Shown here in pieces: positions 5,349-52,069 of a DNA stretch of 64,000 bases. Under the pieces are notes generated by a model. The model saw only the letters and a list, made by a program, of their open reading frames with translations. It was not told where the DNA came from and did no database searches. Origin of the DNA: the human T2T-CHM13v2.0 reference genome, Homo sapiens. Each line of letters begins with the position of its first letter. Positions within the stretch are counted from its first letter, which is position 1. A program made the position numbers and the translations under genes. The stretch is from assembly GCF_009914755.1 (NCBI RefSeq), contig NC_060927.1; one strand, 5' to 3'.

Positions 5349-5719
5349 TGTGTTAGTCCGTTCTCATGCTGCTATGAAGACATACCTGAGACAGGGTAAT
5401 TTATAAAGGAAAGAGGTTTAATTGACTCATGGTTCCGCAGGGCTGGGGAGACCTCAGGAAACTTACAATCATGGCAGAAGGCAAAGGAGAAGCAGGCACC
5501 TTCTTCACAGGGCAGCAGGATGGAGTGAGTGCAAGCAGGGGAAATGCCAAATGCTTATAAAACCATAAGATCTCATGAGAGTCACTATCAGAAGAACAGC
5601 ATGGGGGAAACTGCCCCATGATCCAATTACCTACACCTGGTCCCACCCTTGACACTTAGGGATTATGGGGATTATAACTCAAGATGAGATTTTGGGTGGG
5701 ACACAGCAAAACTATATCA
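5349..5719 (-). mobile_element. THE1-family solo LTR (ERVL-MaLR)
   Basis: ~370 bp with TG...CA ends and the hallmark gggtaatttataaaggaaagaggtttaattgactca...ctcaggaaacttacaatcatggc. Confidence 0.88.
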
Positions 5720-6157
5720 CCTTCCTAGTGTGTAAATGATGAATTGATAAATGAATTGACTGGGTCTTTAGAGAAAAAAAATGACAACAACAACAAAAAA
5801 TCAGAGGCTCAAAGAGGGTAAGAGACTTACCCCATATCACACAGAAGTTATGTCAGAATCAGGAAAAGGGCTTGCCTTGATGGAATGAGGCCCACTTTCC
5901 CAGATGGCAGGGAGGCACCCCAGCTGATGGAGGGAGGAGCCCTTTTGATACTGAGTGTGGCCAATCAGGACATGTCTGAGTTTCCTAGGGGATGGAGTTC
6001 TCCAGGTGAAATGGCATGCCTCTCAGGAGGCTGTGAACCCTGGGGTGGGGTGGGATGGCCTGCAAGGGACCTTCCCAATCTGTGACTCTCCTGGCTAGGG
6101 GATCCCCATTGAGTCTGGGGACTCAGTGACAACCTTGGGAAGTACCAGGAGAAGCAA

Positions 6158-24989: not shown

Positions 24990-25151
<162 letters not shown>

Positions 25152-31170: not shown

Positions 31171-31176
31171 CTTCAT
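31171..31176 (-). CDS. WNT5A: WNT5A exon 1a coding part (Met-Lys)
   Basis: Minus strand reads GCC ATG AAG|GTAGGT. The phase-0 join to exon 2 gives the known N-terminus [11 protein letters not shown]. Confidence 0.95.
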
Positions 31177-31510
31177 GGCGAGGGGGAGGGGGCGCGGGGA
31201 GGAAGTCGCCACCCGAGCGAGCGCAGCCGAGGAATCCGAGCGGAGCGACCGGGTTAAGCCTGGGGGGACGGTCAGGAGCAGGGCTGCGGAGTCCTCCGGC
31301 GCGCGTCCGGCGGGCGCAGTGAACCGGAGCTGAAGCGGGCACTGGCGCCCGGGCCTGGACTCCCGAGTTGGGGCAGAGCTGGGATGCGCCCAGGAATGGA
31401 GGGGGCGCGGACGCGCGCGAGCCGGCAGCAAGGGCAGGGCCTGGTCGGGGCGCAACTAGGGAGCCGCCGGTCCGGCGAGGGCGCGCAGGCAACTGTTCCA
31501 CGGAGAGGCG
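31177..31510 (-). other. WNT5A: WNT5A exon 1a 5'UTR (TSS approximate)
   Basis: GC-rich sequence upstream of the ATG inside the CpG island. The TSS cannot be fixed from sequence alone. Confidence 0.6.
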
Positions 31511-32640: not shown

Positions 32641-33471
32641 GTTCTTTAAAGTTTCAGAACTAGGGGCGGCTGGAAAGAGAGAGGGAAGGGGGGGGAAGAA
32701 AGAAAAAAACTCAACTTTGCTATGCGCATGCGTGGTGAGGCCGGCCTATGACAAACTCTGCAGGATTTTAAAGCCGTACTACGGGCTGGGGTGCCGGGAG
32801 GCGGGGTACACTCTCCTTGTCTCCCCTTCTCTAAGTTCCCCATCCCCCGCGGCATCTGCTGAAAGAGAGAGGTCCACTCCGCAGCCGCTGCCTGCCTGCC
32901 GCCTGGTTGTCTGCGCTCCTTCCAGAGCCACCGACCGGCGGGAGGCTGAACCCCAACTTCCCCGCCTGGACCCCTTGGCTCGCCCGCGTATCCCAGACCG
33001 CTCCCACTGGGGCTCCACGGAGACTGCTGCCTTGACATGGAACCTCATGGGGGACCTCCTCATTCTTACCTCTGGGGGAGGATACTTAAGCACTGGGGCT
33101 GACGGATAGGGTTAGGCGCTCACCTCCTGCAAAGTCCCCAGAGTAGTAGGGACTTGGGTAGTGGGATGCATGATTGCTCATCTGGCTCCGGCCCAGAGCA
33201 TCCAGGCGCGATGCGTGGTCCTGCCACGGAGATCTTGGCGGGTGCCCTCAGGTGAGGAGATTGCGAAGTTTGGCAAAACCGGGTTCCGGGCACCGGAATT
33301 TCTAGACGCTTCCAGATGCCCGTGGTTTTGGGGACTCCGGAGGGGCAGGGTTGGTGGATTTGTGTCCGCTACCTCCAGCACGCCGAGGGCCCCACCCCAC
33401 AAACAGTGCCTCACACTGGAGCGTAATAGTTATTTTCCGCCGTCTGCATTCTCCAGCTGTCAAAGGTGAAG

Positions 33472-33473
33472 AC

Positions 33474-33524
<51 letters not shown>
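33472..33524. repeat. (CA)n(CG)4(CA)n alternating purine-pyrimidine repeat
   Basis: Read directly from sequence. Confidence 0.95.
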
Positions 33525-33527
<3 letters not shown>

Positions 33528-36500
33528 TTCAATTTTCTCCGTCCATTGGCATGCACTTGACCTTAAGGCGAAAAATCCGTGGCCTAGGTGTTTTGGTGTG
33601 GTGGCTGTTTTGTTTTGTTCCTCCAGTCCTCCCCCACCTCCACCCCCACACCCCAGAGGGCGCAGGCCCAGGCTCCAGCGATGCCGTTCCACCCTCCACA
33701 GCCCCTTCCCATTCCTTAATTTTCCTAGCCGACTGGACCCTTCCCCAGCCCTGGCCTCCTTCCTGGCGCGCAAAGATGGCAGTGTGAACTTCCCACCAAG
33801 TGCCAGAGACAGATGCTCCTGCTTAGCACCTCCCGCCTCCCACCAACTTGCTTTCTTTCCCCCAGGGCGTGTGCGGCCTTAAGGAGAGGGAATCCAAGGT
33901 TCTCAAAGCTCCCCTTGGGACATCTCCCCTTTACCTCCTGAGTCTCCATTCCTCTAACCTTCTCCTCTGTAAACCTTGACCACTTCCCGACCTGTGGGCA
34001 TTTTACAGTCTTCGAATCTAACCTGAGATCTGCCCACCTGAGGAGGGTGTCTGAAAAAGAGCGTCTCCGCCCGGCAAATCGCCCCCAGGCTGCGTCCCTC
34101 CGCCCTTCCCCCTCTCCCTTGCCGTTCTGCCCAGTGGCCGCAGACTGAGATTCCCTGGCTGCGGGAGAGCATGTGCCTCCTAGGCAGACACTCCAGCCCC
34201 GCCCCGCGGGCAGGGATCTCCGGGACCCACCTTACGTGCAGCAGCTCCAAGAAGTGGCAGGATATGAGCTGACTATGAAAGGGGCTGCCAAAGGGCGCTC
34301 CCGAAGAATGGAGAAACTAGCATCCCAGTGTCCCAGAGTCCAAGGCAGTTCGTGTAGAGGATCCTATTCTATGAAGAAAAGGGCCGTTAACCTGGGCATT
34401 TCCTCCACACATACAGCCAGTCTAGAAATACTGGCTACCCAACCACAAACCTTTATTTTTTAATGGCTATTTTCTGAGTTATCTGGATAATCACCTGCTT
34501 CTCTCCAATTGCCTTTGCTTGTATAGACACAGCCCAAACAGTGCTATTTCCTGTTCTGCAGTCTTTCCTCTAGTGGAAGTCGGTGTTGGTTAGTGGTTAA
34601 GAGTGCCAGCTGTGGAATCTGGAGTTCCAGTCCCTGCCCTGCCACTTTCCAGCTGTCACACCTTGTCTAGCCTCTCAGCCAGCACTTCAGAACCCTCTTA
34701 CACACAACAACAGCAACAACAGCAGCAAGCAGAAATTTCATGATCTACCTTGCAGAAATGCATTGAGAATGAAATGAGATGAGCTTGAAAATCAGGGCAG
34801 TACTGAGAATGAAACACGATATCTAGGAATGCTCTTAGCATGGGTCAGGCCCTTACCTGGCACTCAATGCCTGCTCTTCTAGAAAAAAAGCAGCTCTGAA
34901 AACAGAGGTTTTCAAACTCCTGTGGTGGTAAAACTGGACCTCACATGACAAGACATAATCTTGATTTATTCCACTTGCTAGGAATACTCTTCACTGAATG
35001 AATACAAATGCATTTGGTTACTGGGTATTTCCCCAGACCTCACTGGGCTGCTTGCAAATTAATAGCAATATGCCCCATTTTATTTTCCCAAAATTTCCAA
35101 CAAAACCGTCTAGTCCCAAGGACTTCAGATAAAGAGTTGTTTTATCTGATAATATTAATAATTAGTGTGCTGAGATTATGCCCCAGGAGCAATAAGCCTC
35201 ATGTCAGCAGGACCTCATCTGCGGTTTTCATGGCTGGAACCCCAGTCCTCAGAACAATGCCTGGCACTTAGTAGGTGCTTAGAAGTAACAACCACACGAA
35301 TGGGCGAATGGATGAAAGAATTATTTCAGAGGACGGTGTTAAGGAGAACCAACTTGAAATCCCTTTTGACCCTTCAATAGTGGGTAGGGGTGGGGACTGC
35401 CTTAGAAAGCCAGGCTCAGTTGTAAGCACCAGTCCCATGATGGTGTTGATTGGTTTGGCTGGGAAATGAGCAGACAGTTGGAAGGAGAGAAACCAATGCC
35501 TCTCCATCTGTGAGGGTTCATGTTCGACAGACCTCCAGTTTGTGGAACTTCATGTTTCCCCTTGCAAACCGTGTGTGCATTTGGGTGTGTGCCTCAGATT
35601 GAGTCATCCGAAGATATACTGGCAAGGCATCACCACACTCTGCTCATTAAAAATGCTTCTGAATCTGTGGAACAAATAAATCAATATTTTTGGCTGCTCT
35701 CCCAACCGGATTATTCACAAAGCAGAGTGCAAGATAAGGAATTTATGAACGACTGCATCCCTGTGCCGCCTTTCCCAGCAGGGGAAAGCAGGGCCTGGGT
35801 TGTCATTCTGGGAAAATCTACCCCCCTTTTATGCCCAGCAAATAATATTTTATGGCCCTGGGTTTATGGTGGTGTTTTAATGATCTGCTGTAGAAAGCGG
35901 TTTTCTCTCCAGTCACTAGAATTTGTCAAGAAAGCCTGGAGGCCATAAAAGAGGGATGGGCCCCAGGGGCAAACAGGCTCCATCTTCTGAAATAAACTAA
36001 TAAAGAGCCCCAAGATGTTTACTCCTTCACCTCAGAGTCAAGACCAGCAGGGCTGTGTGAGCAGGGCCACAGATGGAGCCCTAAAGAAGACAAAGAGGCC
36101 GGAAAGGGGTCGGGGGCTTCCTCACAACCACATGGCCACCGTCAAAGTAATACCATCGCTTTGTGCTGCCACTGGCCTGTGGGGGGCAAAGGCTCCTTTG
36201 AAATTAGAGGACATTTTTGGATTCTGGGTTGACTCCAGGAGGCTCTTTGAGACTCTCAAGCTCTCCTTGCACTGATCACTCACTATGCCCTCCTAACTTA
36301 CTTATGTGTTATATGCCAATTATCCCAGCACCATTTGTTGAATAGGGTGTCCTTTCCTTATATAACACTTATGTGTTATGTGTTATATGTTATATTGACT
36401 ATGACCATTTCATAGTCAATGGTGCTTTGGGGGGGGGGCACTAAATGGATGCTTTAATTTTGTTTCATTTTAGGGAACCTGTGGGTCAGATGGATGTGAG

Positions 36501-38702
36501 TCTGAATCCCAGCTCTGCCTTTTGCTGACTGAGTGACCCTGTAGTGGTCACCTACCCTTTTGAGCCTCAATTTTCTCACCTCTACAGTGGAGATAGGAAA
36601 CAAATATATTAGGATTGTTCTCATAATTGAGATAATGTACAAAAGACCTTGGTCCAGCTCTGCCTATGGAGATAGCTTGATGAATGGCAGCTACTGTGAT
36701 TATTTCTGCACTGTAAATGTCTGTTCCTGGGTCCCCTGGTGGAATCTGGAGAAAAACGAGGAGCCTGAGGAGAGTAGAGGTAGGGGCTGGGAAGAGGAGA
36801 GGAATGTGGCAATTATAGGATCACCGGCCATGCCTATATGACAGAATTCAACAAAGATGGGGCAGGTATGTGTTGAGATAATAATCGGTAATAAACAATC
36901 ATAATAATTGCTGGCAACACTTACTGAGCTCTATGTGCCAGATGCTAGCCCTGTCTAAACTCTTTACATTCATTGCCTTGTTTCATCCTCACTACTTTGT
37001 GAGATAGATCGTATTATTATCTGCATTGTGGAGAAAAGGAAGGTTCAAAGAGGTCCTGATTTTGATAAAACCAAGCTGTTTTAGGAGTTGCGAATCCTGA
37101 CACCTTCTGATTTCACTCCACTGAACACCAGACGTGCACACAACCAGATTCAGCCACATCAGGAACGCCTGATTCAAGCTCAGCTCAATGGAACTGTCAA
37201 AGATTTGTTCTTATTTCATTAACTGGCTGGCTTTGACGTCTCTGCTTTTGCCCCGCCACCATCAAGAACGACACCATCCATACTCAGCAATTTACCTTGA
37301 ATTCTTACCTTGTATTGGGCAGTGCCCTGGGAATTCCCTTCTCTCTGGAAAGAGCTTGTTATCCCCAAAGGAATGAATGAGGGCCTGAGGGCTGTCTCTC
37401 CCCAGTGCTGCTCAGGTCATGTCACATCTCTGCTTAAAGCCCTTCAGAGGCTCCCCAGAGTTTATCAGATAAAATCGAAACAAGTTAACCTGGACTTCAG
37501 GATAGCTTCATCCACATGCATCCTTTGTACTTATTCTTCCCTCTGCCTGCAACGCTGTCCCTTCTGACCAGTCACCCTCACTCCCTTGAAGTCACCTCCT
37601 CATTGTACACATCAGTCTCAAAGAAGCTGCTGTCTTTTCCCCATGATTCTCTACTCCCTTGCTTTGTCTGATTGTCTTATCCTGATCTAAAATTATTTTA
37701 TTTACAAGTATATTTGTTTACTTGTCTGTCTTGTTTTCTCTCAATAGAAAATAAGCTCCAGGAGGGCAAGGACCTGGTTGGCCTTGTTCATAGTTGTGAC
37801 ACAAACCCCTACTGACTCACACAGAGAACGTGTTCTAAATAAGTGAATGAAGGAATGATCTTACCTGTGGCCATGCCACTGCTGAGCAAAAGTTTGAACC
37901 CTGGTAATCTGACTTTAAATGTAAGGGACTTAATCACCACACTTTACCTATAAATAAAAACAAAACTATTTTTTAGAAGATATCTCTCTGGTTTCCCATA
38001 TGTGTCCCCACTTTTTCCCTTGGCCTTACCCATATAAGGCTTGCCTTAGTGGAAAGAGTTTAATAAGAGAAATAGTTTTCATCCGAAGAAAGACGGTATC
38101 CCATTTACTCTCCCCTTGTGTCATATTGTTTCTTCTGAAAAGTTGTTTGCTCCTAAGTGGCATGTTTTATGAATGGCAGCTGGTATGTTCAGTCCTGTGA
38201 CACAGCTCAGCATTTTCCATTGCGTATTCTATGTGGCCCGCTGATCATCTACATGCTGGGTTTAGAAGAATATAGATTAACCGGTTCTGGGGAATACAAG
38301 TCCCTTAACTTACATGGAAGAAGCAGACTTTTTTATCAAAGAGATAGGAGAAAATGCTGGGTTTGTATTTTGTTTTATTTTATTTATTTATTTTTGGAAT
38401 TGTCAATATTATATGTCTAAATCTGTGGCATAGGGCTTTGGAAATCTGATTTGACTGTTCTCAATAATTACTTTTGTTCTTAAACAACTCAAACATGGCC
38501 ATACTCCTGGGTATGTATTAATAAAAGCAGGTTTTTAAACTGCTCAGCTAAGTCCATTCTCCGGAAGGGAAATCTAGAAAAGTGGAGTGTTTTCAAAGTT
38601 TTCACATTGAGCATGCTGTGAAAACAGATGGCAGAAATATAAGAGCTCATTAGAAAGCAGCCAGCTAATGCTCAAGTTTGGTCCAAACTGGATTCAAACA
38701 TA

Positions 38703-39058
<356 letters not shown>

Positions 39059-39239
39059 TTAAATAGACCAAATTCATCCCTTCCAGATAAGAAGCAACAA
39101 ACAGTCCTCCTTTCATGGCCACCTGGAAAGCCTACCTGGGGACACATTTGGACAAGTGTTAGACTTTGGCCAAAGAATAAAAGTGCATCCTCAAATCTCA
39201 AGACTACCACATAACATAATTTTTTAAAATTTTTCTATA

Positions 39240-40012
39240 AATAAAATTGATTTATTTTTAATTGACAAAAATTGTACATACATCTGGTGTACAAAACAAT
39301 GTTTTGAAACATGTATACTTTGTGAAAAGCCTAAATCAACTAATTATTATAACATATCCATTACCTCACATACTTGACATTCTTTTGTGATGAGCACATC
39401 GAAAATTTGTAGTCTTAGCAATTTTCAAGTACACAATACCTTGTTATTAACTATAGTCACCATATTATACAATAGATCTTTTGAACTTATTTCTCCTATC
39501 TAACTGAAAATTTGCATCATTTGACCAACATCTCCTTAGACCTCGTCCCTCCCCCTACTTTGGCAACCACCATTCTACTCTTGGCTTCTGTAAGTTCAAC
39601 TTTTTTAGATTTTGTATGTAAGTGAGATCATGCAGCATTTGCCTCTCTGTGCCTGGCTTATTTTACTTAGCATAATCTCCTCTAGGTTCATTCATGTTGT
39701 CTCAAATGATAAGATTTTCTTCTTTTTTAAGACTGAATAGTATTCCATTGTGTATCTATGCCACATTTGCCTTATCAATTCCCATTGATGAACACTTAAG
39801 TTGATTCCATATCTCCATATTCATTGTAATAAATAATGCTGCAATGAACATTTGGGAGTGCAGGTACCTTTTTAATATACTGACCTCATTTCCTTTGAAT
39901 ATATACTTAGAAGTGGAATTACTGGATCATACGGTAGTTTTTAATTTTTAGCTTTCTAAGGAACCTCCATGCTGTTTTTCATAATGGCTGTATTAATTTA
40001 CATTCCCACTGA
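39240..40012 (-). mobile_element. L1 3' end (L1MA-like)
   Basis: L1 3'UTR/ORF2-end hallmarks (gtgagatcatgcag..tgtgcctggcttatttt; gaacctccat..tgttttt cataatggctgta). Confidence 0.85.
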
Positions 40013-42769
40013 TAAATGTTACACAATTTTTAATATTAAACCAATGGCGAGAAAAATGGCAAGAGAGCTACACAATAGTTCAACATTTCTAAGTGAAAAG
40101 GACAGAGTTTAGTCATTTAGTAAGTTACTTGGTATTCCTGACATCAAGCTGTACACAAAACATCCAGGAAGCTGACTGCATTTTTTAACTTTTCAAGAAT
40201 TTTCTGAAAAGTTAGAACATAGAAATTTTACGTTTTTTTGAATTTTAACATGTTACCCTAATGTGTTTTTTTCATTGTCAATATCCCCAACCCCCTTAAA
40301 AGGTACCTGATGTAATTCTAAACAGCAGAATTAAATCCCAAGTCCTTTTAATTTTGTATACTTTGCTGCTATAATCATCAATGGTGAATAAAATGACTCT
40401 GTTATGACTTCCCCAAAATCTCTCAATGAATCAGTGAATTTTGGATAAAAGCTTCTTTGCTCCACTCAGTTTAATCTTCAGTTCAGTGATCTATATGTGT
40501 CCATTAAGGTCAAATGACAATTCATTGGCTTTGAAAAATATCAGAAATATTCCCAGGGCAAAAGATCCCCATGTCATTGAATGTATTTAAGGTAAGTGGT
40601 TTTGACTTAAGCAAAGATTTCTACTTAACCCAGGAGAAAAGCAGTCACTCTTTGGAAATACCACAGAATTCAGGAAAGTGAAGTGAATAATAGCAAAGGA
40701 TTAAATTTACCTATTCCGGCAGGTACATGTATCTACTGAGTATATACAGGAACGCGATGGCTCCACTCACGTGTCATTTGTGGACAACCCTCTTCTGCTC
40801 AACCCAGGAGCATGATCCTCCCCCTGTGGCCCTCAGTCCTTAGTCATGCAGCTATGTCATAACAGAGATTAGTGGGAACATAAGCGCCTTCCCTCTCTTG
40901 TTCAGCATGCATGCTCCATTCAAGGAGGTTTGAAAATCTCTCTTTGCTATTTGAAAATGGGATTCCATCCAGAGGATATCAACATCTATTTCAAAATTTG
41001 CCAACAGAAAATAAAAGCAAATCATAAATTTAGAGAGTCAGTTTATTGGGACTGAATTATAGCTACAAAAAATAAATCGAAGAGTAGCTTAAAGCTTATG
41101 GAAAGTAAGGGCCATAGACATGACTGATACGCTATGCATTCATTCATTCATCCCGTTGTTTGCTCCTTCAACAGATATTTACGGGTCACCTACTGTGGAT
41201 CATCAACCATTCATTTAACAAGCATTTACGGCCCACCCATTCATTCATTTGTCGAATTAGTATTGTACGTGCCAGATCACACCGGTTTGTCCATTTTAAT
41301 CAACAGATAATTACTGAGCACTTGCTGAGTGTCAGACTTGAACAGGATCTAGAAGACAGTCCCAAATGCATGGGTGAGGTGGGAGCCTCCTAAATATGTT
41401 TGTAAACATATCCTGGATGTTACTGCTGCATGGGCTGTCGTTAGGCCTGTGGCCTCTTAGCTCAGTAGTCCTGGAAGAGGGCTAAAGGGCTGAAAGCCCA
41501 AGTTCAACATTAGGGATTCCTCCTTGTGCTGGCTGGCTAACCCTAGAAATCTGTCCAAAGGGGGTCCAGCAAGCAAGTGAGTCACTCACCATTAGGAGAC
41601 AAACACTCTGCAGTGGCCATTTCATTGGCAGGGCTTCCAAGCACTGTCATCCAACAGATGAGGCACTTTGGACTCTGGCTGGTTTGAGACAGGGAGAACT
41701 TAGAACTAACACAGTCTCTTGTTTACAATCCCCACTACCCCACAGCAAATACAATTTTCTTCTACTTCTCTTCAAATGCACTCCCTCTAGTCTGTGCTGA
41801 GCATTTTACATACATAATATCATTGAGCCTGACTGGAATATTAGTAATGCATATTAATATTCCAGTGTTACAGATGAGGAGAGTAAGCTCCAAAAGATGA
41901 AGCAACTTGCCCAAGGTCACATAGGCAGAATTTAAATGAGCCCTGTAAATCAAAAGCCGTGATTCCTGCAAAGGGCAAAAGCAGAGGGGAGCAGTAGAAA
42001 AATATGAGGAGAGATGGAGAGAGATAGAAGGGAAGAGCCAAGAGAGGTGGGAAGGATGGAAGAAAAGGATGGAGAAGGGAATTAGGAAGAAAGAAAGGTG
42101 CCAAGACAATTCTTCCAGAAGAGCAGTGAGAAAGAATTACATTTGTCCTCTACTTGTCATCTACAGAGGTTAAAATGAAATCCTGGCAGGATTTCAAATT
42201 ACTGTATTCATGTTTAAGTCAAAATTGTATCCATTTGCCTGTTGTCATACATCTCATGAAGGGTTGACAAGGCCAAAATTAGGTGGCTTCTTTCTACTTG
42301 TTTTGTTTTGAACCCAGCAGTGCAGACTCATAATGGCACATTCTTCAGTTTGCTTCCAGGCATCTTCCTTATGTGACAGCCGTCACTGTTCATCATGGAG
42401 TTTTCACTTGAGCCTTAAGACCATGTTCATACCTTTGAACGGTGTCACCCATTCAGGGACTTGATTTCCAGGGGGATCATCAATTTCTTCCTTTTTGGAA
42501 AACTCATTAGATTATCTACTATGTATGTGCCAGGAATTATGCTAATCAGTGGGGATGGTGAACTAAATGAGCCGCGGCTCCCGCTCTCAAGGACTCACAA
42601 TAAAGCAGAGTATCCAGGCCTGTACAATAAGGATGATGAGAGTAACACTGATTAATGCTACACAATGAGGTACGTGGGAGACACGAGGCATAGAGGAAAA
42701 GCAGACACACTACTGAAGAAAGAAGACAAAGGATTATGACAGCTACGGAGACAGAGCACCTAGTCGGAA

Positions 42770-43283
42770 CACCTGTCCAGCATCAATTCTTTCTTCTGCT
42801 GTTAAGAGCACCTTTGACTCTCCTCTGAGGACTCACCTATACTCTCCTTCCAGGACAGATGATTTGGTGGGGCTAGCTCCACCCCCTGACTTAAGGTAGG
42901 GGCATGTGACTCAGGTCGGGCCCATCAGAAGAGTCACGTGACACAGACTAGATTAACAGAGATAGTCTCAGGATTTTTTTTTTCCCCAATAGAGACATAG
43001 GGGAGCCAACTTTCCTTTGAAATTTTTAACCTGTTTGGCTCTAAATGTGGAGTTTCTGGGTAAGGGTTGGGGGGCATCATATAACAAAAGCAACACTGAA
43101 AATGAAGGCAGTCTAGAAGTAAACAAAGCCCAGCAATGCCAAGAAAAATGAGACACTGGTCTTCTGACCTCGTTAGAGCCCTCGGGTCCAATTGTGCCTA
43201 AGGCCATTATCCTCCTTGTCTTCTTTCTCTATTTAGTGAAATCAAGGTTTATCCCTTGCAGTTGAAAGAGCTCTGACAATACA
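42770..43283 (+). mobile_element. LTR16-like ERVL LTR
   Basis: gggcatgtgactcagg...cttgcagttgaaagagctctgacaatac. Confidence 0.5.
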
Positions 43284-43892
43284 AAAATGCTTGGTTGTTT
43301 TAGGAAAATTAATGTTTAAGTAAAAAAGGCAAAGTCAGGTTTAGAGTTAAATGGAAGATACCTGTTCCCTGCTGGGATTTGGATAGCCTCACAGAGGTTA
43401 CAGGAGTTTTGATCTTCTCTTGAGGCAGAATATCTTGTCGGGCTAGGAAGAAACCACGGGAAGTGAATGCTGATGAATTAATGGTGCAGAGTGGGAGGTG
43501 ATTCCATGTGTGAGTAAAGCAAGCGGCTTGGGAGTACTCTGAGGACAAGTCCATGAATGCAAAGCGGGAAGACAGTAGGTGAGGAGTTTCTCTTAGAGAC
43601 AGACCACTCTGAGGCTGACTGACAGAAGATGCAGCCTGTGACCTACACCTACACCTACAGGACATCTGGCTTTGACATATTTGGGACTATCAGTGGAAAA
43701 GTCACCAACTGTCTTTGAAAAGTACTCTTGATTTCCATGTTTTTTCTGATACTATTTCATTTGGAAACATAATTTAAATGGTTTAAGTAAACTAAATCCA
43801 TTAGCGGTTGACTTTAAGTCTTAAAATCTAAATTTTCACAGGGGAGAAGAAAAGACCTTAGATGCCCTATGCCCATTAGAAATAAAATTTAA

Positions 43893-44204
<312 letters not shown>

Positions 44205-47200
44205 TTAAATTAACTAGATTTTTCCTGTGGATTCAGCAATTTATCCCACAGTAAATACTTACTGTAAGCCTCCTGTGTACCAGGCAGGGCCACAGAGTTG
44301 GGCAAAAATTAGATAAAATTTCTGCCCTTCTGGAAATGAGAAAACAGGATTTACAGTGTTTACCATGAGTTTTTTTCTTAGTAAATGTCAGCTCTTCATA
44401 GCTACCCTGCAGGATTGCACCTGGAAAATCAAGAGCTTGGGCTAAATCAGTATTGACAGAAAAATATACTATGGGAATTTGCATAAATCCCTGACACAAA
44501 GTTATTTCCTTTTGATTTGCTATTTTCCTAAATCTAAAGGGCTCACAGAATGAGAATATTGTTAATGGATGGCCATGAATACCCAGGTTAAGCACAAGCT
44601 CTGATGAGTTAAGTTTTGGTTCACTAAGAACTAGCACTCATTATATTTCCTCATGACACTAGAAAATACGTGCAGTTACTATTACACATATTATTAATGT
44701 GGAAAATGCTTCCTGACAGCTTGTCATGTATTGGACATTGTGCTAAGCATAAAGGTAGCACAGGAACACTGAGTGATTTGCTTGGGGCTACTCAGCCAGG
44801 AAGTGGCAGAGACAGGGCTCAAACCTGTCTGTTTGACCCCAAAAGTCTATGAATTACTGAAGTAGAAATATTCTGAGTAATTCCCTGTGGCCATGAAATC
44901 ATAGTTACTTCCTCAGAGCTTCGTGTACTATTTAGATAGAGGAGAAAGCCTGGTTTACCACAGGAGTTCCAGCACCAACAAAGAGAATCAGAGATTTCAT
45001 AGTGATGACAAGTTCTGCTTTCAATAGAGGACTTTCCTTAGTTATAAAGAGGGAAAGAACATGACTCTGTAATAATGACTTCATTAAATGCAGCCTTACC
45101 CATCTATGGCCCTAAAACATTACCAACCAGAATCAAAAAAGAGGTAGAACGTTTTCTCTCTTGAGAATTTTCCAAGACTTTACAAACATGACCCCATTAA
45201 TCCACTCAATACCCGGATGAGATAGGTAGTTGGAAGTTATTATTATTATCACTTTCAAGATAGAATATCTGAAGCCAAGAGAGATTAAGCAATTAGTTTG
45301 GGGTCAAATGGTGAGCCAGAGACAGGCCTGGGAATGAAACAATTATCTTCCGAAATTCCAATCAAATGCAGAAACTGATTGGCTGGCTACCACTATGTGC
45401 TAATATCCAGTTATATGCCCTCCTCCTTAAATGACTGGCCTTAAATGAGATTTCTGCAGCTGCATCGAACTGGATTGGTTCAACAGCAATGTCCAAACTG
45501 ACATCAGATTTTTCTAAAGTATTGGCTAAAAAATAAAAAATGCAACTCCTTGCTCCAAATGTGGTATTCATTTTACCTAGTTCTTACATTTAATCAGACC
45601 TGTGCACGCACAGTTTTGGAGGATAAAGGGAGAATTGTTCTACAAAGAAGTGCTGGTTGTGTGTTCTTTTCTTTAGAGAATCTGTAGAACGTAGAAAGGT
45701 TTAGGGAGCATCTTGAAATTTCTCTGATGTTGAGACTGAGAAAAGATGAACATAAATGATCTTTGAATTGTACAAAATCTGGAATCCAATTACTCACCTT
45801 TGAGCTCATGTTCACTCGTCAGTCAAATACCCTTTACTCTTTTCATCTGTGTACTTTTAACAGTAGGTACAGTTGTATAATCCAAAGTCATCAGTTAGGA
45901 AAAGAGAAGGCTTCCAGGTGGGCCAAGAGAAATCTATTCTTTGAGCTAATAACTCCAAGGGCATACGCAAAGAAAATTGGTCTGTTGGAGAAAATGCTAT
46001 TAATGACCCCTCTTGTCCAATTTTGTAAAAGGCCCTGCCCCTCCAAATTCCTGAAGCAAATTTTTATTCCTTTCTGTCCACCTGAGTCTTTGGTGATTTA
46101 AAATAAATTACTCTGTTATCAATTTTGACTGGTTTGGGGCAAGGTGAGGTTTTGGTGAAATCGTTATTATCAAAAGGAAAATAAGGCCCCATTTAGTTAG
46201 ATTGGTGGGAGGGCAACAACCCCTTTACAACTAGCCACACGTCATGCTATGAGCTTGTTCTTTAAGAATTCAGTGGCCACTTCTGGATTTGTTGGATTTC
46301 AGTTTCTTTGAGCAGCCAAATCAGACTCTTGGAGAAATTCTTCTCCCATGACTTCATAATTTCTGGAAGTACAGGAGATTTGGGACTGGTCACCTTAAGA
46401 AATTCCAATTCTGTCTCCTATCACTGCTCAATCTGTTCAATCTTTTTTCGACCCCTTTGGTCTTGTGCTGATGGGGTCAGCTCCTTTCAGAAAACACCAA
46501 CTGTGACCCATGCCTACTGCAGGAATGCTAGCTTGCTAATGCACAGACATTGTGGGGAAACAATTTTAAAGCTTATCCATTTTCTTTCTTTTTTTCAAAA
46601 ATCAAACACTTTTTGTGGAATCAAAAGTCAAGACAATTCCTTCACTGCAACTTAGTTCCACCTTGTTTCTCTCAAGCTAAAAACATAATGTTCAGAAACC
46701 AGAACATCAACTAGAGTTTGGGACCCAAATCTGACACCTTGCAAAGAACTATCTTAAGCATTTCCAAATGGAGTTATAATGTCTTGATATTTCCAAAAGT
46801 CCTAGTAGGTTTCAGACATGGGATATTTTCATAGAACTCATTAAGCTACTATGTTTGAAGAATGTTGAACAGCATGGCAAAGAATCATGCTGTAAAATCA
46901 ACTAAGACAGGCATTTTGTATTACAAAAGAAACATTGAAAACCACGGCTACGGATTTTGGACATAGGCAAAGATACTGAGACCTAATCAACCCATGGCTA
47001 ATCCTAAAGCCTTAAATTCTTATAGATGTGTGAATATGTAGCATTTGTGTGGGAAAGAGGAAATGGTCCTATTCAAACTGAAGGCTTATGGTGCTTATGC
47101 CATACTGGCATTAGGCCTTTTTCTGTTTTTCTAACCAGGCCCACATTTCTTATCACACAAGTTGGGCAGGTCTTTCCTGAATTTTTAAAACCTGGTGTTT

Positions 47201-47770
47201 TATTGTCCAAAACTCTTGCTTTTAACTTGAGTTCATGTGTCTTGTGGAAGTACAAGTGGTAATTATACAAGTCTTTCCTTCCCTGTCATTGGCAACAGTA
47301 ACCAGGGAAATTTACAGCCCCCAATATCCAGATCTGGAAACTGGTTATTAAACGTGGTCAAGGAAAACCCTGACGTGGCAAATGGGATCTGAGCAAGGAC
47401 CAGCTCAGCAGTGGTTCTTGTGAGAGAATGGCTGGGAGTCAGCAATCTTACTTGATTGAACATTTTTATTATTTGTGATTTTATTACTGGTAATAATACC
47501 TATCATTTCCATTTGTTCAGGATCTATTATGTGGTTGGCATTGTGTTAAATGACCATTTGATCCTTGTTAAAAAACAAAAACCCAAACCTTCTGGAGTTG
47601 TATTACAATTTTAGGATGAGGAAACAAACACAGAGAGACTGAATAACTGGCCAAGGATTACTTATTTGGCATGCTGTGGAGTCAGGATTTTAAGAGACTA
47701 TAAACCCAGATGCACTCAGGGGTCAGGCAGGTTACACACAAGGGTGAAGTTGGCCAGGTGTAACATTTTA

Positions 47771-48169
<399 letters not shown>

Positions 48170-48191
48170 CAGGAGTTAGAGAATAAATTTT

Positions 48192-48514
48192 GGGGCACGG
48201 TGGCTCACACCTGTAATTTCAGAACTTTGGGAGGCCAAGACAGGTGGATCACTTGAGGTCAGGAGTTCAAGACAAGCCTGGCCAATATGGAGAAACCCTG
48301 TCTCCACTAAAAATACAAAAATTAGCCAGACATGGTGGCACAGGCCTGTAATCTCAGCTACTCGGGTGGCTGAGGCAGGATTGCTTGAGCCTGGGAGGCG
48401 GAGGTTGCAGCAAGCCAAGATCATGCCACTGCACTCCAGCCTGAGCGACAGGGTGAGACTCTGTCTCAAAAAAATAAAAATAAAATAAAAAAAGAAAGAA
48501 AGAAAAGAAAGAAA
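48192..48514 (+). mobile_element. AluS-like
   Basis: Full dimer with an A-rich tail. Confidence 0.9.
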
Positions 48515-48670
48515 TTTTTAAGACATAGTGCCTGCCCCCAAAAAACAAAAACAAACAAACAGAAGAAACCCTGAAGCCTACATTTATTCCATAGGCCTTA
48601 GTTTTCCAACCCCTGTGATGTGAAACTGGATTAATGCTTGATGGCATTAAAATTTTTTAGGGTAAACCCC

Positions 48671-48962
<292 letters not shown>

Positions 48963-49278
48963 TAGGCTAAACCTTTCAAATAAGATAAAACAGAGAGGTA
49001 GAAAAGTACACAAATTGTAAGTATATCACTTGATGAATTTTCACAAACTGAACATGATCATGTAATAAATTTCCAGGTCAAGAATCCCAACTCCTAACCC
49101 TATATATTAATTTTGTCTTTTTCTGAGCTTTATATAGATAGAATCACACAGTATGTCCTCTTTTGTACATCTGCTTTCACCCAGTAGGCTGTAAGATTTG
49201 TTCCTGTAGCAGCAGGAAGCAATGGTTCCTTCTGAAGAGCTTTTATTCTCAAATCTGGTGCTTGATTTATTCACCCGA

Positions 49279-49653
49279 CATATTAGTTCATTCTAATGCT
49301 GCTATAAAGAACTGCCCAAGACTGGGTAATTTATAAAGGAAAGAGGTTTAATTGACTCACAGTTCAGCATGGCTCAGGAGGCCTCAGGAAACTTACTATC
49401 ATGGTGGTAGGCAAAGGGGAAGCAAGGCACTTTCTTCACAAGGTGGCAGCAGGGAGAAGTGCAAGCAGGGGAAATGCCAGAGGCTTATAAAATCATCAGA
49501 TCTCGTGAGAACTCACTATCATGAGAACAGCATGGGGGAAACCGCCCCACTGATCCGGTCACCTTCCACCAGATCCCTCCCGCGACATGTGGGGATTATG
49601 GGAACTACGGTTCAAGATGACATTTGGGTGGGAACATAGCCAAACCACTATCA
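49279..49653 (-). mobile_element. THE1-family solo LTR, oriented toward WNT5A
   Basis: THE1 hallmarks, ~375 bp, and a 5-bp TSD CCCGA/CCTGA. Confidence 0.9.
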
Positions 49654-52069
49654 CCTGAGTATCTTATACCTATGCAAGGAAGGAGGAAGACTTCCTTCTC
49701 TGAATGTACATTCTAAAAATGAAAACAAGCGGCTCTAGGACTTTGTTAGAGTTGTGGAAGAGTTTTGCTATTAAAATGTGTTTTCTCATGAATTGCCTTG
49801 TTCTGTCCACTCACATCCCATATCAGGTAGTTGGGAGCTATGTTGTTCCCACTGATTATATTCAAAAACAGAGGTCACATGCAGTTACGTGACTGTATGC
49901 TTTTCCCAAGCACAGGTGTCGCAAAATGGTTAGACAACTGAGATTTTAGTTGAGGTATATTGATTACCAATCTGATGCTATTGTCACCTGAACACACACC
50001 CCTTAGCATGGTACCCAAGGCCCTCTCCCACCTCAGGGTTGGGGGGGATCTGTTCAGTCCTCTGTCACTCGGTGCTCCATCTGCAACCCCAAGGATGTTC
50101 AGGGATGCCTGTGAGGTGAGCTGGGCTGGTGCCCAGAGACTGAGGGCTTGGAAGAAATCCAAGAGGCCCGAGGGTAGCAAGGTTAAATACAGTGCACTGA
50201 GCTTTATCTAGGCTCTCCTTTTCCTTGTGTCTTGATTTCCCGTGGGAGCCACAGCCTTTCTGTGTGGTAGTCCATTCTCTTGTACTATTGGTTAACTATG
50301 GAAGTCAGTGATGAAGCCACCAGCCTCTTCAGGCCCTGTGTGCCATGTGGCCACGTTAGAGACCAAATGCATCCCAGAAACACTAAGTGGGATCTGAACC
50401 TCAGCCCCTAATGTCTCACTGGTCTGACCTGTGAGATACCTCAATACCTGCCCTAAGCAGAAGAGCCTGCTGGGCACTGGGTTCAAAGCCTGGCTCCACC
50501 ACTTACTATCTGGGGGACCCTGGATGAGGTACGTAAACTCTGTAGGCCTTCTTTTCCTTGTCTGTAAAGTGAGGTCAATGATAGTGCCTGCCTCAAGGGA
50601 TTCCTATGAGGATAAGAGTTCATGTAAGCAAAGCCTTTAGCACAACACTGGCATCAAATATACAATCTGGAATTGCATGCTGCTTCTGGTCATCTCTGTG
50701 GTGCTCCATTTCCTTCACTGTAAAATGTGGGTCATGACAGTATCTACCTCGTGGGACTGTTGTCAGGAATAAACAGAGTCTATCCACCTAAGTCCTTAGC
50801 ATTGTGGCCAGGTTCTTAGCAAATGCTCAATAATGTTCAGTTATTTATTAGTAGTATGATTATTATTACAGATCAGTAATTCTATGAATTAGGATGTCTC
50901 TCCAATCTTTTGTAATGGCAGTCCACAGATATCAGATGCAGTCAAACCTCCAGAGTACCAAACTTAAGTCTATGTGCTTCCATGGAGCTAAAGGTACAGA
51001 TGAACCTGCAGTTGGAGTCCAGCAGTGTGTCAGCCTGGTAACCTTCTTACCAAAAAGACCAACTTGTGGGTAAAGAAGCAAAGGTTCCATGTGGCCAGAT
51101 GGGTTTACGTAGCCAGGCCTGAATGCCAGCTGCTGCTTCAGGAAATTCTAGGAGGCAAGAAATTCTTGTCCAGCAAGAAGTTCTCTTTCTATAAAAAGGC
51201 AACAGAATGGAAAGGGCCAACAACTTTGCACGTCCCCCCAAAAGTACCCAACTTTGAGGGAAGGTCACATGTGGTGGCTTTGAGCCCAGAAATGTTTCTT
51301 TGAGTACAGAAACAAAATGATATTTCCCCCATGTTGTTAAGGGGCAGCTGGAGGGAGGTTTTGTTCCTTCCTCTCCTTCTCAAAGAGCTTCAGGGACACA
51401 TCTTCCTGTTTCAAGAGCTCTGAGGACAGTCTTGGTTTGCCATGAACTTACCATGTATGTGTGGATCAGTCACTTCTGACTTGGCCTCAGTTTCTCCATC
51501 TGGTAAAATGAAGATGTTGGATTACATGACATCTAACATACTTTCTAGCTCTGACAATCAATTACTCAGTGATTTCAGCCATGGTAAGAATTGGAAATTC
51601 ATCCCCTGGCATATAAATCAAACCATTAAAGGAACCAGGGGCTGGTTCTGCAGGCTAAAAAAGGACAGCTAGCAATGAGGTTCTTCACTGATCCACAGAC
51701 ACGCTGTGAAGGCTGGTGAGCCCTTGCATGGACGATTGTGTGTGTATCCAAGTGGTGGCAGGGCTAGCTAGTATTTTTGCCTGCCTAGCTTTCTTGTCCC
51801 TCTCTTCTAGAATAGAATCCATTTTCCCTTGTTGGAAACTGCTCCCCCCACCCCCACCAGTGAGGCTGTCAACCACATGGCCTTGAAAAAGGTAATTGTT
51901 TGCATGATCCAAAAAAGAATCACCAAGTGTCCCTTTAGGGGACAGATGTAGATGTAGCTCAGAGAGTTAGTCTCTCCTCTAAAAATCAAAAGTACTCAAA
52001 GCTGTTGGAAGTCATCTTTACAACCAAGTGGAGAGAGCTTACCAGAGTCCAAAGCCAACCCAATAGAAA

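What the first reader, a model, noticed from the sequence alone, without database searches (positions are those of the whole stretch)
49391..49495. THE1 LTR carries a ready-made, in-frame alternative first coding exon for WNT5A
Seen: the LTR points toward WNT5A. On the minus strand it reads TTTTATAAG (49492-49484), then ~80 nt with no ATG, then CCACC-ATG-ATA|GTAAGT (ATG 49402-49400, donor GT 49396-49395). That is exactly 6 coding nt before the donor, the same as native exon 1a (ATG AAG|GT). Known: THE1 LTRs act as promoters and splice donors in placenta, early embryo/DUX4 contexts and Hodgkin lymphoma (e.g. THE1B-CSF1R). Inference: splicing to exon 2 (25124) would give full-length 380-aa WNT5A starting MIKSIG... 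(K2I), independent of the CpG-island promoters and limited to anthropoid primates. I recall LTR-driven WNT5A transcription being reported in Hodgkin lines (unverified), so the coding-frame mimicry may be the less noticed part.
Basis: partly seen in the sequence, partly recalled or inferred. Interest (0 to 1): 0.8.

Follow-up and report, generated by a model that had tools for sequence, protein, structure and literature searches.

The report
Old retroviral LTR driving WNT5A
A solitary, tens-of-millions-of-years-old retroviral end-piece (LTR) 18 kb upstream of WNT5A is an already published, normally silent extra promoter for that gene, and its built-in start codon fits the gene's reading frame mainly because thousands of sister copies carry the same block.

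Summary
The feature is a real, full-length solitary MaLR LTR of the THE1 group at 49279-49653, minus strand. It has a 5-bp flanking repeat (4 of 5 bases) and no viral gene.

Its role as a WNT5A promoter is already known. RefSeq model XM_054347752.1 starts at 49460 and uses the donor at 49397. Two papers call it THE1D-WNT5A, in Hodgkin and bladder-cancer lines.

The frame arithmetic is right. A direct join to exon 2 gives 380 aa with one change, at residue 2.

It is not mimicry. The same start-codon-plus-donor block sits at 5,792 places in the genome and in 11 of 15 compared copies. A phase-0 first coding intron occurs in 39.5% of genes. The only annotated transcript breaks the frame, and 15 of 16 exon combinations give short upstream ORFs.

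Age is roughly 40-60 million years (plus literature). I could separate it from THE1B but could not confirm the subfamily independently.

One point adds interest: start-codon choice decides between the long and short WNT5A forms. Whether the LTR's start codon is used remains unproven.

The parts
49279..49653 (-). Whole remnant: a solitary MaLR LTR of the THE1 group (called THE1D in two papers), 375 bp, sense to WNT5A, with no internal region and no viral gene.
   Evidence: In one search, 37 of 40 non-self matches span query 1-9 to 371-374 of 375, at 79-87% identity, from 7,266 first-look candidates. The flanks match no internal sequence of kin. Papers.
49654..49658 (.). Upstream copy of the 5-bp target-site duplication (host DNA).
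   Evidence: 4 of 5 bases match 49274-49278 at the strict LTR ends. The chance of 4 or more of 5 is 0.02.
49274..49278 (.). Downstream copy of the 5-bp target-site duplication (host DNA).
49484..49492 (-). TATA-like promoter box of the LTR (core at 49489-49485).
   Evidence: The core is kept in 10 of 15 compared copies.
49397..49460 (-). LTR-derived first exon of WNT5A, 64 nt, as annotated by RefSeq in XM_054347752.1. Its 5' end lies 29 nt below the TATA core.
   Evidence: RACE-Seq and RNA-seq evidence is reported in PMC6558280.
49400..49402 (-). First start codon of that exon, with A at -3. It lies two codons before the donor.
   Evidence: It is present at the homologous column in 14 of 15 copies.
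49391..49396 (-). Splice donor of the LTR. The six intronic bases fit GTRAGT.
   Evidence: It is used in the RefSeq model. The start codon + 3 nt + GT arrangement is kept in 11 of 15 copies.
49347..49360 (-). Cluster just downstream of the donor: a second donor-like hexamer (49360-49355), an AP-1 consensus (49359-49353) and the LTR's own poly(A) signal (49352-49347).
   Evidence: Motif scan, using motifs recalled from memory. From the start codon to this second donor the frame meets a stop.
24991..25124 (-). WNT5A exon 2, a phase-0 acceptor shared by all annotated first exons. It holds the downstream start codon at 25085.
   Evidence: The acceptor has 19 of 20 pyrimidines.
31171..31497 (-). 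Native WNT5A exon 1 (NM_003392.7). Its last six bases are coding.
34231..45981 (-). Span of the four intermediate exons of XM_054347752.1: 45798-45981, 41590-41678, 38030-38255 and 34231-37947. They separate the LTR exon from exon 2 and break the frame.

Best explanation
This is a solitary LTR of an ERVL-MaLR retrotransposon of the THE1 group, labelled THE1D by RepeatMasker in two papers. It inserted roughly 40-60 million years ago, in sense orientation, 18 kb upstream of the main WNT5A start site.

**How it works**
- It keeps the family's own promoter box and start site (about 49460), an ATG-free leader, a start codon with one further codon, and a strong donor at 49397|49396. Its own poly(A) signal lies just beyond.
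- It is normally silent. When it is derepressed, transcription starts in the LTR and the LTR donor splices to downstream acceptors. This is published for a Hodgkin line and for bladder-cancer lines.
- One route runs through upstream non-coding exons (the RefSeq model, the lncRNA). There the LTR start codon only opens a short upstream ORF.
- The other route goes straight to exon 2. There the LTR start codon is the first AUG and is in frame, giving a 380-aa long-type WNT5A precursor with Ile instead of Lys at residue 2.

**Frame fit**
The fit is a by-product of a family-wide block meeting a phase-0 intron. It is not an adaptation to WNT5A.

**Shown and inferred**
- Shown here: the element, its bounds, its kin, the signals, the annotated exon and the frame arithmetic.
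- Shown by others: LTR-initiated WNT5A RNA.
- Inferred: the direct junction and use of the LTR start codon.
For: **Element**
- 7,266 candidates, 40 scored. 37 of the 40 non-self matches are full length, at 79-87% identity.
- flanking repeat 4 of 5 bases, chance 0.02.
- no internal sequence beside it, whereas kin L005 and L008 share 152 bp of internal sequence.
- the only other MaLR-like LTR in the window is at 5353-5719, beyond the 3' end of WNT5A. The published 'LTR 20 kb upstream' must therefore be this one.

**Family**
- the two literature-named THE1B copies split from the rest in 298 of 300 bootstraps. This LTR grouped with them in 0 of 300.
- the named THE1D copy (IL2RB) sits inside this LTR's group.
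- two papers label it THE1D.

**Promoter and exon**
- the RefSeq exon.
- 29 nt from the TATA core to the 5' end.
- RACE-Seq, RNA-seq and an LTR-to-exon-2 qPCR in the paper.

**Frame**
- 380 aa with one difference.
- only the direct join reads through. The exon 2 acceptor has 19 of 20 pyrimidines, against 12-13 of 20 for the intermediate exons.

**Family trait**
- 11 of 15 copies.
- 5,792 places, control 0. All 99 listed rows keep the block.
- PMC5538554 states that ERVL/MaLR LTRs may carry a donor and even a functional AUG.

**Chance**
- 39.5% of first coding introns are phase 0.

**Age**
- K2P to near kin is 0.161-0.168.
- the literature brackets.
Against: - The only annotated transcript from this exon does not join exon 2 directly. 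It has a 4,319-nt leader with 72 ATGs.
- I saw no junction sequence. The paper's primers and Fig. S5C are in closed supplements.
- The 179-bp product is compatible with a direct join, which allows at most 64+134 = 198 bp within the RefSeq exon bounds. It does not exclude inclusion of the 89-nt exon.
- Raw distances do not favour THE1D. Only 2 of 12 copies are closer to the named THE1D copy than to both THE1B copies, because that copy has a long private branch.
- I had no named THE1C, THE1A or MSTA comparator.
- The two named THE1B copies differ by K2P 0.207. That is more than this LTR's similarity-picked kin differ among themselves, so my distances are biased low and the date is rough.
- This LTR's 3' end is not the canonical CA.
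- No strict NF-kB or DUX4 motif was found.
- In KM-H2, WNT5A knock-down slowed growth. PMC3832467 assigns growth promotion to the short form. This is a weak, cross-cell-type hint against a long-type product.
Confidence: 0.8

Rival explanations
1. The LTR exon is purely non-coding. LTR-started RNAs run through the upstream lncRNA-type exons. The LTR start codon is only the head of a 7-20 codon upstream ORF. Any WNT5A protein from such RNAs starts at the exon 2 start codon (short form), or the RNA is mostly an untranslated lncRNA.
For: - The RefSeq model and its annotated coding start at 25085.
- A 13-codon upstream ORF.
- 15 of 16 exon combinations break the frame.
- Growth promotion in KM-H2 fits the short form's reported activity.
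Against: [quoted passage not shown] That is too short to contain the 184-, 226- or 3,717-nt exons.
- A 4.3-kb leader with 72 ATGs would translate WNT5A poorly. Yet WNT5A protein is detected in the LTR-positive line and falls on knock-down.
- The exon 2 acceptor is much the strongest.
Confidence: 0.35
2. The fit of the LTR's two-codon head to WNT5A's two-codon exon 1 was shaped or kept by selection at this locus. This would be true exaptation as a coding first exon in anthropoids.
For: This copy keeps the full set of promoter core, clean leader, start codon and strong donor. Only 8 of 15 compared copies and 0 of 5 order-picked older copies do so. It also has the most CpGs of the first 10 copies, 6 against 1-5.
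Against: - 8 of 15 sister copies keep the same full set with no WNT5A nearby.
- The block is at 5,792 places.
- Its distance to kin (0.161) is no lower than the kin's distance to each other (0.168), so there is no sign of slowed change.
- The phase-match prior is 0.4.
- The published activity is in tumour lines.
- No orthologue comparison was possible.
Confidence: 0.07
3. The exon is an annotation artefact. Gnomon chained unrelated RNA-seq islands, and the LTR is not a promoter at all.
For: The model is computational and its leader is implausibly long.
Against: Two independent papers report LTR-started WNT5A RNA by RACE-Seq, RNA-seq and qPCR. The model's 5' end sits 29 nt below the TATA core, and its donor is the family's own.
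Confidence: 0.03

Closest known systems
THE1D-WNT5A LTR-driven transcript of Hodgkin lymphoma cells (PMC6558280) and bladder-cancer lines (PMC10696462)
   Same: This is the same locus. It is the only MaLR-type LTR upstream of WNT5A in the window, 18 kb from the main start site where the paper says '20 kb'. It has the same orientation and the same role as promoter.
   Different: The main text of PMC6558280 says nothing on a start codon, reading frame or translation: 0 hits for six such terms, apart from one hit for 'splice'. The frame point is therefore an added detail, not a new element.
THE1B LTR promoter of CSF1R in Hodgkin lymphoma (Lamprecht 2010, as described in PMC5134097)
   Same: It is a solitary MaLR LTR upstream of a growth-related gene. 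It starts transcription and uses a donor inside the LTR, giving ectopic expression of a normal protein.
   Different: - It belongs to a different subfamily. It splits from this LTR's group in 298 of 300 bootstraps and is about 20 bp shorter.
- Its RNA passes through an exon in a LINE and then CSF1R exon 1, and the LTR contributes only leader sequence.
- That copy does not keep the start codon + 3 nt + GT arrangement at the homologous columns.
THE1D LTR placental promoter of IL2RB (as described in PMC13313205 and PMC6166974)
   Same: It carries the same subfamily label and is used as an alternative promoter. The RefSeq bound of IL2RB begins inside that LTR. It sits inside this LTR's group on the tree.
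   Different: - It is active in a normal tissue (placenta).
- That copy has lost the start codon at the homologous column.
- Its RefSeq 5' end maps about 60 nt further upstream in the LTR than here.
Mouse MT/MaLR LTR first exons with donor and functional AUG (PMC5538554, citing Peaston 2004 and Flemr 2013)
   Same: These are MaLR LTRs that supply a promoter, a 5' exon, a donor near the 3' part of the LTR and sometimes the start codon of the host protein.
   Different: They are rodent subfamilies with oocyte or zygote activity, and start-codon use is shown experimentally. Here it is only inferred.
[quoted passage not shown]
   Same: Alternative first exons feed the same phase-0 exon 2. Whether the first exon carries an in-frame start codon decides between the 380-aa and the 365-aa precursor.
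   Different: Those first exons are host DNA with CpG-island promoters. The LTR exon would give a long-type precursor with a changed residue 2. That residue lies in the part removed on maturation, since the mature long form starts at residue 44.

Membership tests
ERVL-MaLR LTR (THE1/MST group) | Full-length similarity to a large dispersed family of LTR copies | tested here: met
   7,266 first-look candidates, 40 scored. All 40 non-self rows have E <= 1.8e-80, and 37 of 40 are full length.
ERVL-MaLR LTR (THE1/MST group) | 5-bp target-site duplication at the LTR ends | tested here: met
   4 of 5 bases, chance 0.02. 5 of 12 copies reach 4 or more of 5 at strict ends.
ERVL-MaLR LTR (THE1/MST group) | TG...CA termini | tested here: inconclusive
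   the 5' TG is present, but the 3' end of this copy is not CA. Kin alignments stop 2 nt short of the end.
ERVL-MaLR LTR (THE1/MST group) | Some copies flank a shared internal region | tested here: met
   kin L005 and L008 share 152 bp directly after the LTR. This copy has none, so it is solitary.
ERVL-MaLR LTR (THE1/MST group) | Internal region without pol and env | not tested
   This is taken from the literature only (PMC11359688). No internal region was fetched whole or framed.
THE1D subfamily | Classified THE1D against a curated repeat library | not testable with these tools
   No repeat library is available here. The label comes from two papers that used RepeatMasker.
THE1D subfamily | Closer to named THE1D than to named THE1B copies | tested here: inconclusive
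   - Tree: the THE1B pair splits off in 298 of 300 bootstraps, this LTR groups with it in 0 of 300, and the named THE1D copy sits inside this LTR's group.
- Gap columns: 14 against THE1D, 23-30 against THE1B.
- Raw K2P: 0.279 to the THE1D copy, 0.250 and 0.324 to the THE1B copies. Only 2 of 12 copies are nearer to the THE1D copy.
THE1D subfamily | Distinct from THE1C, THE1A and MSTA | not tested
   I found no literature-named copy of these with a usable place.
THE1D subfamily | Present in simians only | not testable with these tools
   No other primate genome is available here. PMC10735291 states this for the family. The orthologous site of this copy was not examined.
LTR-derived alternative promoter and first exon (onco-exaptation type) | Transcription start inside the LTR, downstream of its promoter box | tested here: met
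   The RefSeq 5' end at 49460 lies 29 nt below the TATA core. A RACE-Seq peak is reported in PMC6558280.
LTR-derived alternative promoter and first exon (onco-exaptation type) | A donor inside the LTR joined to host exons | tested here: met
   The RefSeq model joins 49397 to 45981 and onwards to exon 2. The paper reports an LTR-to-exon-2 qPCR product.
LTR-supplied start codon (coding first exon) | The LTR start codon is in frame with the host coding sequence in a real transcript and is used by ribosomes | not testable with these tools
   It is in frame only in the direct-join model (1 of 16). No junction reads, ribosome data or protein N-termini are available here.

The most novel reading that the evidence does not exclude
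Where this LTR fires, its donor joins exon 2 directly. The LTR's own AUG, in a strong context, then becomes the initiation codon. On this reading the retroelement does more than switch WNT5A on: it also selects the long (380-aa) precursor over the short one. The two forms are reported to mature differently and to act oppositely on tumour-cell growth. More broadly, thousands of THE1/MST copies carry the same two-codon, phase-0 coding head. They could hand an in-frame start to any downstream gene whose first coding intron is phase 0, which is about 40% of genes.
Probability: 0.3. Interest if true: 0.45.

Novelty: already known. Interest (0 to 1): 0.28.

Why it matters
WNT5A acts as a tumour suppressor in some cancers and a driver in others. 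One proposed reason is the balance between its long and short forms, which is set by which first exon is used (PMC3832467). A retroviral promoter whose exon carries an in-frame start codon would add a third, epigenetically switched route, and that route would be predicted to give the long-type precursor. Existing RNA and ribosome data can test this cheaply.

Beyond that the locus is an ordinary, published case of LTR promoter use. The useful general point is that the 'coding head' belongs to the LTR family and not to this gene.

Tried and rejected
**Tried, with little or no result**
1. **LTR-pair clock.** Kin L008 and L006 lie 3.4 kb apart on one strand, with K2P 0.141. Their outer flanks show no matching 5-bp repeat: 0 of 5 at strict ends, at most 3 of 5 with offsets. 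I therefore did not treat them as one element.
2. **Raw distances to named copies as a subfamily test.** They were dominated by private branches, so I report the test as inconclusive.
3. **Five copies picked by listing order, meant as an unbiased bracket for dating.** They proved far more diverged (K2P 0.22-0.37, lengths 345-424), so they belong to other, older subfamilies and cannot date this copy. They do show that the start-codon-and-donor block predates this subfamily.
4. **Strict NF-kB and DUX4 motifs.** None was found. The motifs were recalled from memory.
5. **PMC11805910.** It had 0 hits for start codon, donor or frame terms. In PMC11909889, WNT5A appears only in the reference list.

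**Whether the frame point is in print.** I searched, and searched the main text. I found the principle but not this case. Supplements were closed and may hold it.

**What each paper contributed**
- PMC6558280: abstract, sections 4 and 16, and passages.
- PMC10735291: abstract, section 10 and passages.
- PMC3832467: abstract and passages.
- PMC5134097, PMC6166974, PMC13313205, PMC3836709, PMC11359688, PMC5538554 and PMC10696462: passages only.

**Closed supplements that may bear on claims**
- Primers and Fig. S5C of PMC6558280, for the exact junction.
- The event table of PMC10696462.
- Fig. S3 of PMC10735291, for features that tell the subfamilies apart.

**Recalled, from no call**
- The substitution rates used for dating.
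- The hg38 bounds of CSF1R, used to place the published LTR coordinates on this assembly.
- The motif consensuses.

**Not used**
- The viral-contig scan. Human-like records are left out of it, so a blank would mean little.
- The search of phage, plasmid and E. coli records, which is irrelevant here.
- The protein tools. The remnant has no gene.

Full report
**1. The observation**

- A TATA-like box lies at 49492-49484.
- It is followed by 81 nt without any ATG.
- A start codon lies at 49402-49400, with one further codon after it.
- A GT donor lies at 49396-49395. Its six intronic bases fit the strong-donor consensus.
- The start codon has A at -3.
- Native WNT5A exon 1 likewise ends exactly six coding bases after its start codon.

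RefSeq already has an exon at 49397-49460, the first exon of the Gnomon model XM_054347752.1. Its 5' end lies 29 nt below the TATA core.

**2. Is the remnant real, and what are its bounds?**

I searched the reference with 49279-49653 (minus strand).
- The search gave 7,266 first-look candidates, of which 40 were scored.
- All 40 non-self rows are strong matches at 79-87% identity.
- 37 of the 40 run from query position 1-9 to 371-374 of 375. The bounds are therefore those of a full-length LTR.
- At those bounds the flanking 5-mers agree in 4 of 5 bases, where the chance of 4 or more is 0.02. 5 of 12 copies show such a repeat at strict ends.
- The 5' end is TG. The 3' end of this copy is not the canonical CA.
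- Two kin, L005 and L008, share 152 bp directly after their LTR, which is internal sequence. The flanks of this copy match nothing of that kind.

It is therefore a solitary LTR with no viral gene. It is not young, not near whole, has no envelope, and resembles no current virus of people or livestock. Nothing called for a stop.

**3. Family**

The window holds only one other LTR of this kind, at 5353-5719. That is beyond the 3' end of WNT5A. The 'THE1D LTR 20 kb upstream of the WNT5A gene' of PMC6558280 must therefore be this copy, 17,963 bp from the main start site at 31497. A second paper lists 'THE1D-WNT5A' among promoter events in bladder-cancer lines. Both labels come from RepeatMasker.

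For an independent test I fetched three literature-named copies by place:
- the THE1B LTR of CSF1R;
- the THE1B LTR upstream of CRH;
- the THE1D LTR at the 5' bound of IL2RB.

Results:
- On a distance tree the two THE1B copies split from all others in 298 of 300 bootstraps.
- This LTR joined them in 0 of 300.
- The named THE1D copy sits inside this LTR's group.
- The THE1B copies are about 20 bp shorter, with 23-30 gap columns against this LTR, compared with 14 for the THE1D copy.
- Against this, raw distances do not favour THE1D: 0.279 to the THE1D copy, 0.250 and 0.324 to the THE1B copies. Only 2 of 12 copies are nearer to the THE1D copy, because that copy has a long private branch.

I had no named THE1C, THE1A or MSTA copy and no repeat library. 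My own evidence therefore says 'MaLR LTR of the THE1/MST group, not THE1B'. The subfamily name rests on the papers.

**4. Age**

I built no consensus and used pairwise distances only.

| Comparison | Mean K2P |
|---|---|
| This LTR vs 9 best kin | 0.161 (0.140 without CpG sites) |
| Those 9 kin among themselves (36 pairs) | 0.168 |
| This LTR vs 11 kin, picking block removed | 0.168 |
| Those 11 kin among themselves (55 pairs) | 0.182 |

Half of 0.168 is 0.084 per lineage. That corresponds to 38, 56 or 70 million years at 2.2, 1.5 or 1.2 x 10^-9 per site per year. The rates are recalled from memory.

The kin were chosen for similarity, so the figure is biased low. The two named THE1B copies differ by 0.207, which shows how rough such numbers are.

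The literature gives these brackets:
[quoted passage not shown] - THE1B is put at about 50 million years (PMC6166974).

My estimate is 40-60 million years. I could not examine the orthologous site in other primates.

**5. Is the start-codon-plus-donor block special to this copy?**

It is not.
- At homologous columns, 14 of 15 compared copies keep the start codon.
- 11 of 15 keep the arrangement of start codon, 3 nt and GT.
- 8 of 15 keep the full set: promoter core, clean leader and the arrangement.
- Among the named copies, the IL2RB copy has lost the start codon, the CSF1R copy lacks the arrangement, and the CRH copy keeps it.
- Genome-wide, 5,792 places (2,915 + 2,877) lie within 3 mismatches of the 26-base stretch 49410-49385. 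The reversed control gives 0. All 99 listed rows keep the start codon, the 3-nt spacer and the donor.
- Five copies taken from that list by order alone are much more diverged (K2P 0.22-0.37, lengths 345-424). None keeps the full set. The block is therefore older than this subfamily, while the complete 'promoter to donor' set belongs mainly to the nearer kin.

The phase match with WNT5A has a prior of about 0.4, since 370 of 936 chr3 'select' mRNAs have a phase-0 first coding intron.

**6. What the exon does**

In the one annotated transcript, the LTR exon is followed by four intermediate exons before exon 2. There the LTR start codon opens a 13-codon upstream ORF. The leader is 4,319 nt long with 72 ATGs, and RefSeq places the coding start at 25085.

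Of the 16 exon-skipping variants of that model, only the direct join to exon 2 lets the LTR start codon reach the WNT5A stop. It gives 380 aa with one difference from the native protein, at residue 2. The other 15 give upstream ORFs of 7-20 codons.

The exon 2 acceptor has 19 of 20 pyrimidines, against 12-13 of 20 for the intermediate exons.

PMC6558280 reports:
- RACE-Seq and RNA-seq signal from the LTR;
- a 179-bp RT-PCR band in microdissected tumour cells;
- WNT5A protein that falls on knock-down;

A direct join allows a product of at most 198 bp within the RefSeq exon bounds, so 179 bp fits. It excludes the 184-, 226- and 3,717-nt exons but not the 89-nt one. The primers are in closed supplements. 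The paper's main text has no word on a start codon, frame or translation.

**7. Why the start codon could matter**

PMC3832467 shows the following:
- Transcripts from exon 1 start at the first methionine. Its first two residues are encoded in exon 1, and the mature protein begins at residue 44.
- Transcripts from exon 1-beta start at a methionine in exon 2, and the mature protein begins at residue 62.
- The long form inhibits the growth of tumour lines and the short form promotes it.

An LTR exon without a start codon would give the short form. With its in-frame start codon and a direct join, it would be predicted to give a long-type precursor. The changed residue 2 lies in the part that is removed. 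The slower growth of KM-H2 after knock-down is a weak hint the other way.

**8. Verdict**

- The element is real, old and solitary.
- Its promoter role for WNT5A is published and annotated.
- The frame fit is real on paper. It is a family trait meeting a common intron phase, and its use in cells is unproven.
- Novelty: already known. The frame detail was not found in print in my searches, with supplements unseen.
- Interest is low to moderate.

Noticed in passing
window 5353-5719 (minus strand): A second full-length MaLR LTR, 82% identical to the one studied, lies beyond the 3' end of WNT5A. It keeps the full set of promoter core, clean leader, start codon and strong donor.
   Followed up: partly
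window 34231-49460 (XM_054347752.1 leader): The Gnomon model has a 4,319-nt leader with 72 ATGs, including a 3.7-kb 'exon'. It looks like a chain of the upstream lncRNA (RP11-875H7.5 in PMC6558280) and WNT5A, not one working mRNA.
   Followed up: partly
L012 4798-5174 (IL2RB 5' bound): The RefSeq bound of IL2RB begins inside its THE1D LTR. The position is homologous to window 49520, about 60 nt upstream of the start site annotated in the WNT5A LTR and upstream of the promoter box.
   Followed up: no
L008 and L006 (contig 14, 3.4 kb apart, same strand): These may be the two LTRs of one element. L008 is followed by internal sequence that L005 shares. The outer flanks show no matching 5-bp repeat, so the pairing is unconfirmed.
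   Followed up: partly
window 49279-49653: This LTR has 6 CpGs, the most among the first 10 copies compared (the others have 1-5). I drew no conclusion from this.
   Followed up: no
window about 48778-48962 (minus-strand flank downstream of the LTR): A 186-bp stretch matches the flank of kin L009 in reverse orientation at 82% identity. It overlaps a masked repeat and is an unrelated interspersed repeat.
   Followed up: no
literature (PMC3836709, PMC11359688): Two papers single out one THE1 internal region with an uninterrupted reading frame as a candidate active copy. I did not look for it or fetch it.
   Followed up: no
window 33124-33479: A further annotated first exon (XM_054347751.1) carries 48 coding bases and is also phase 0 into exon 2. 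At least three upstream exons can therefore feed exon 2 in frame.
   Followed up: no
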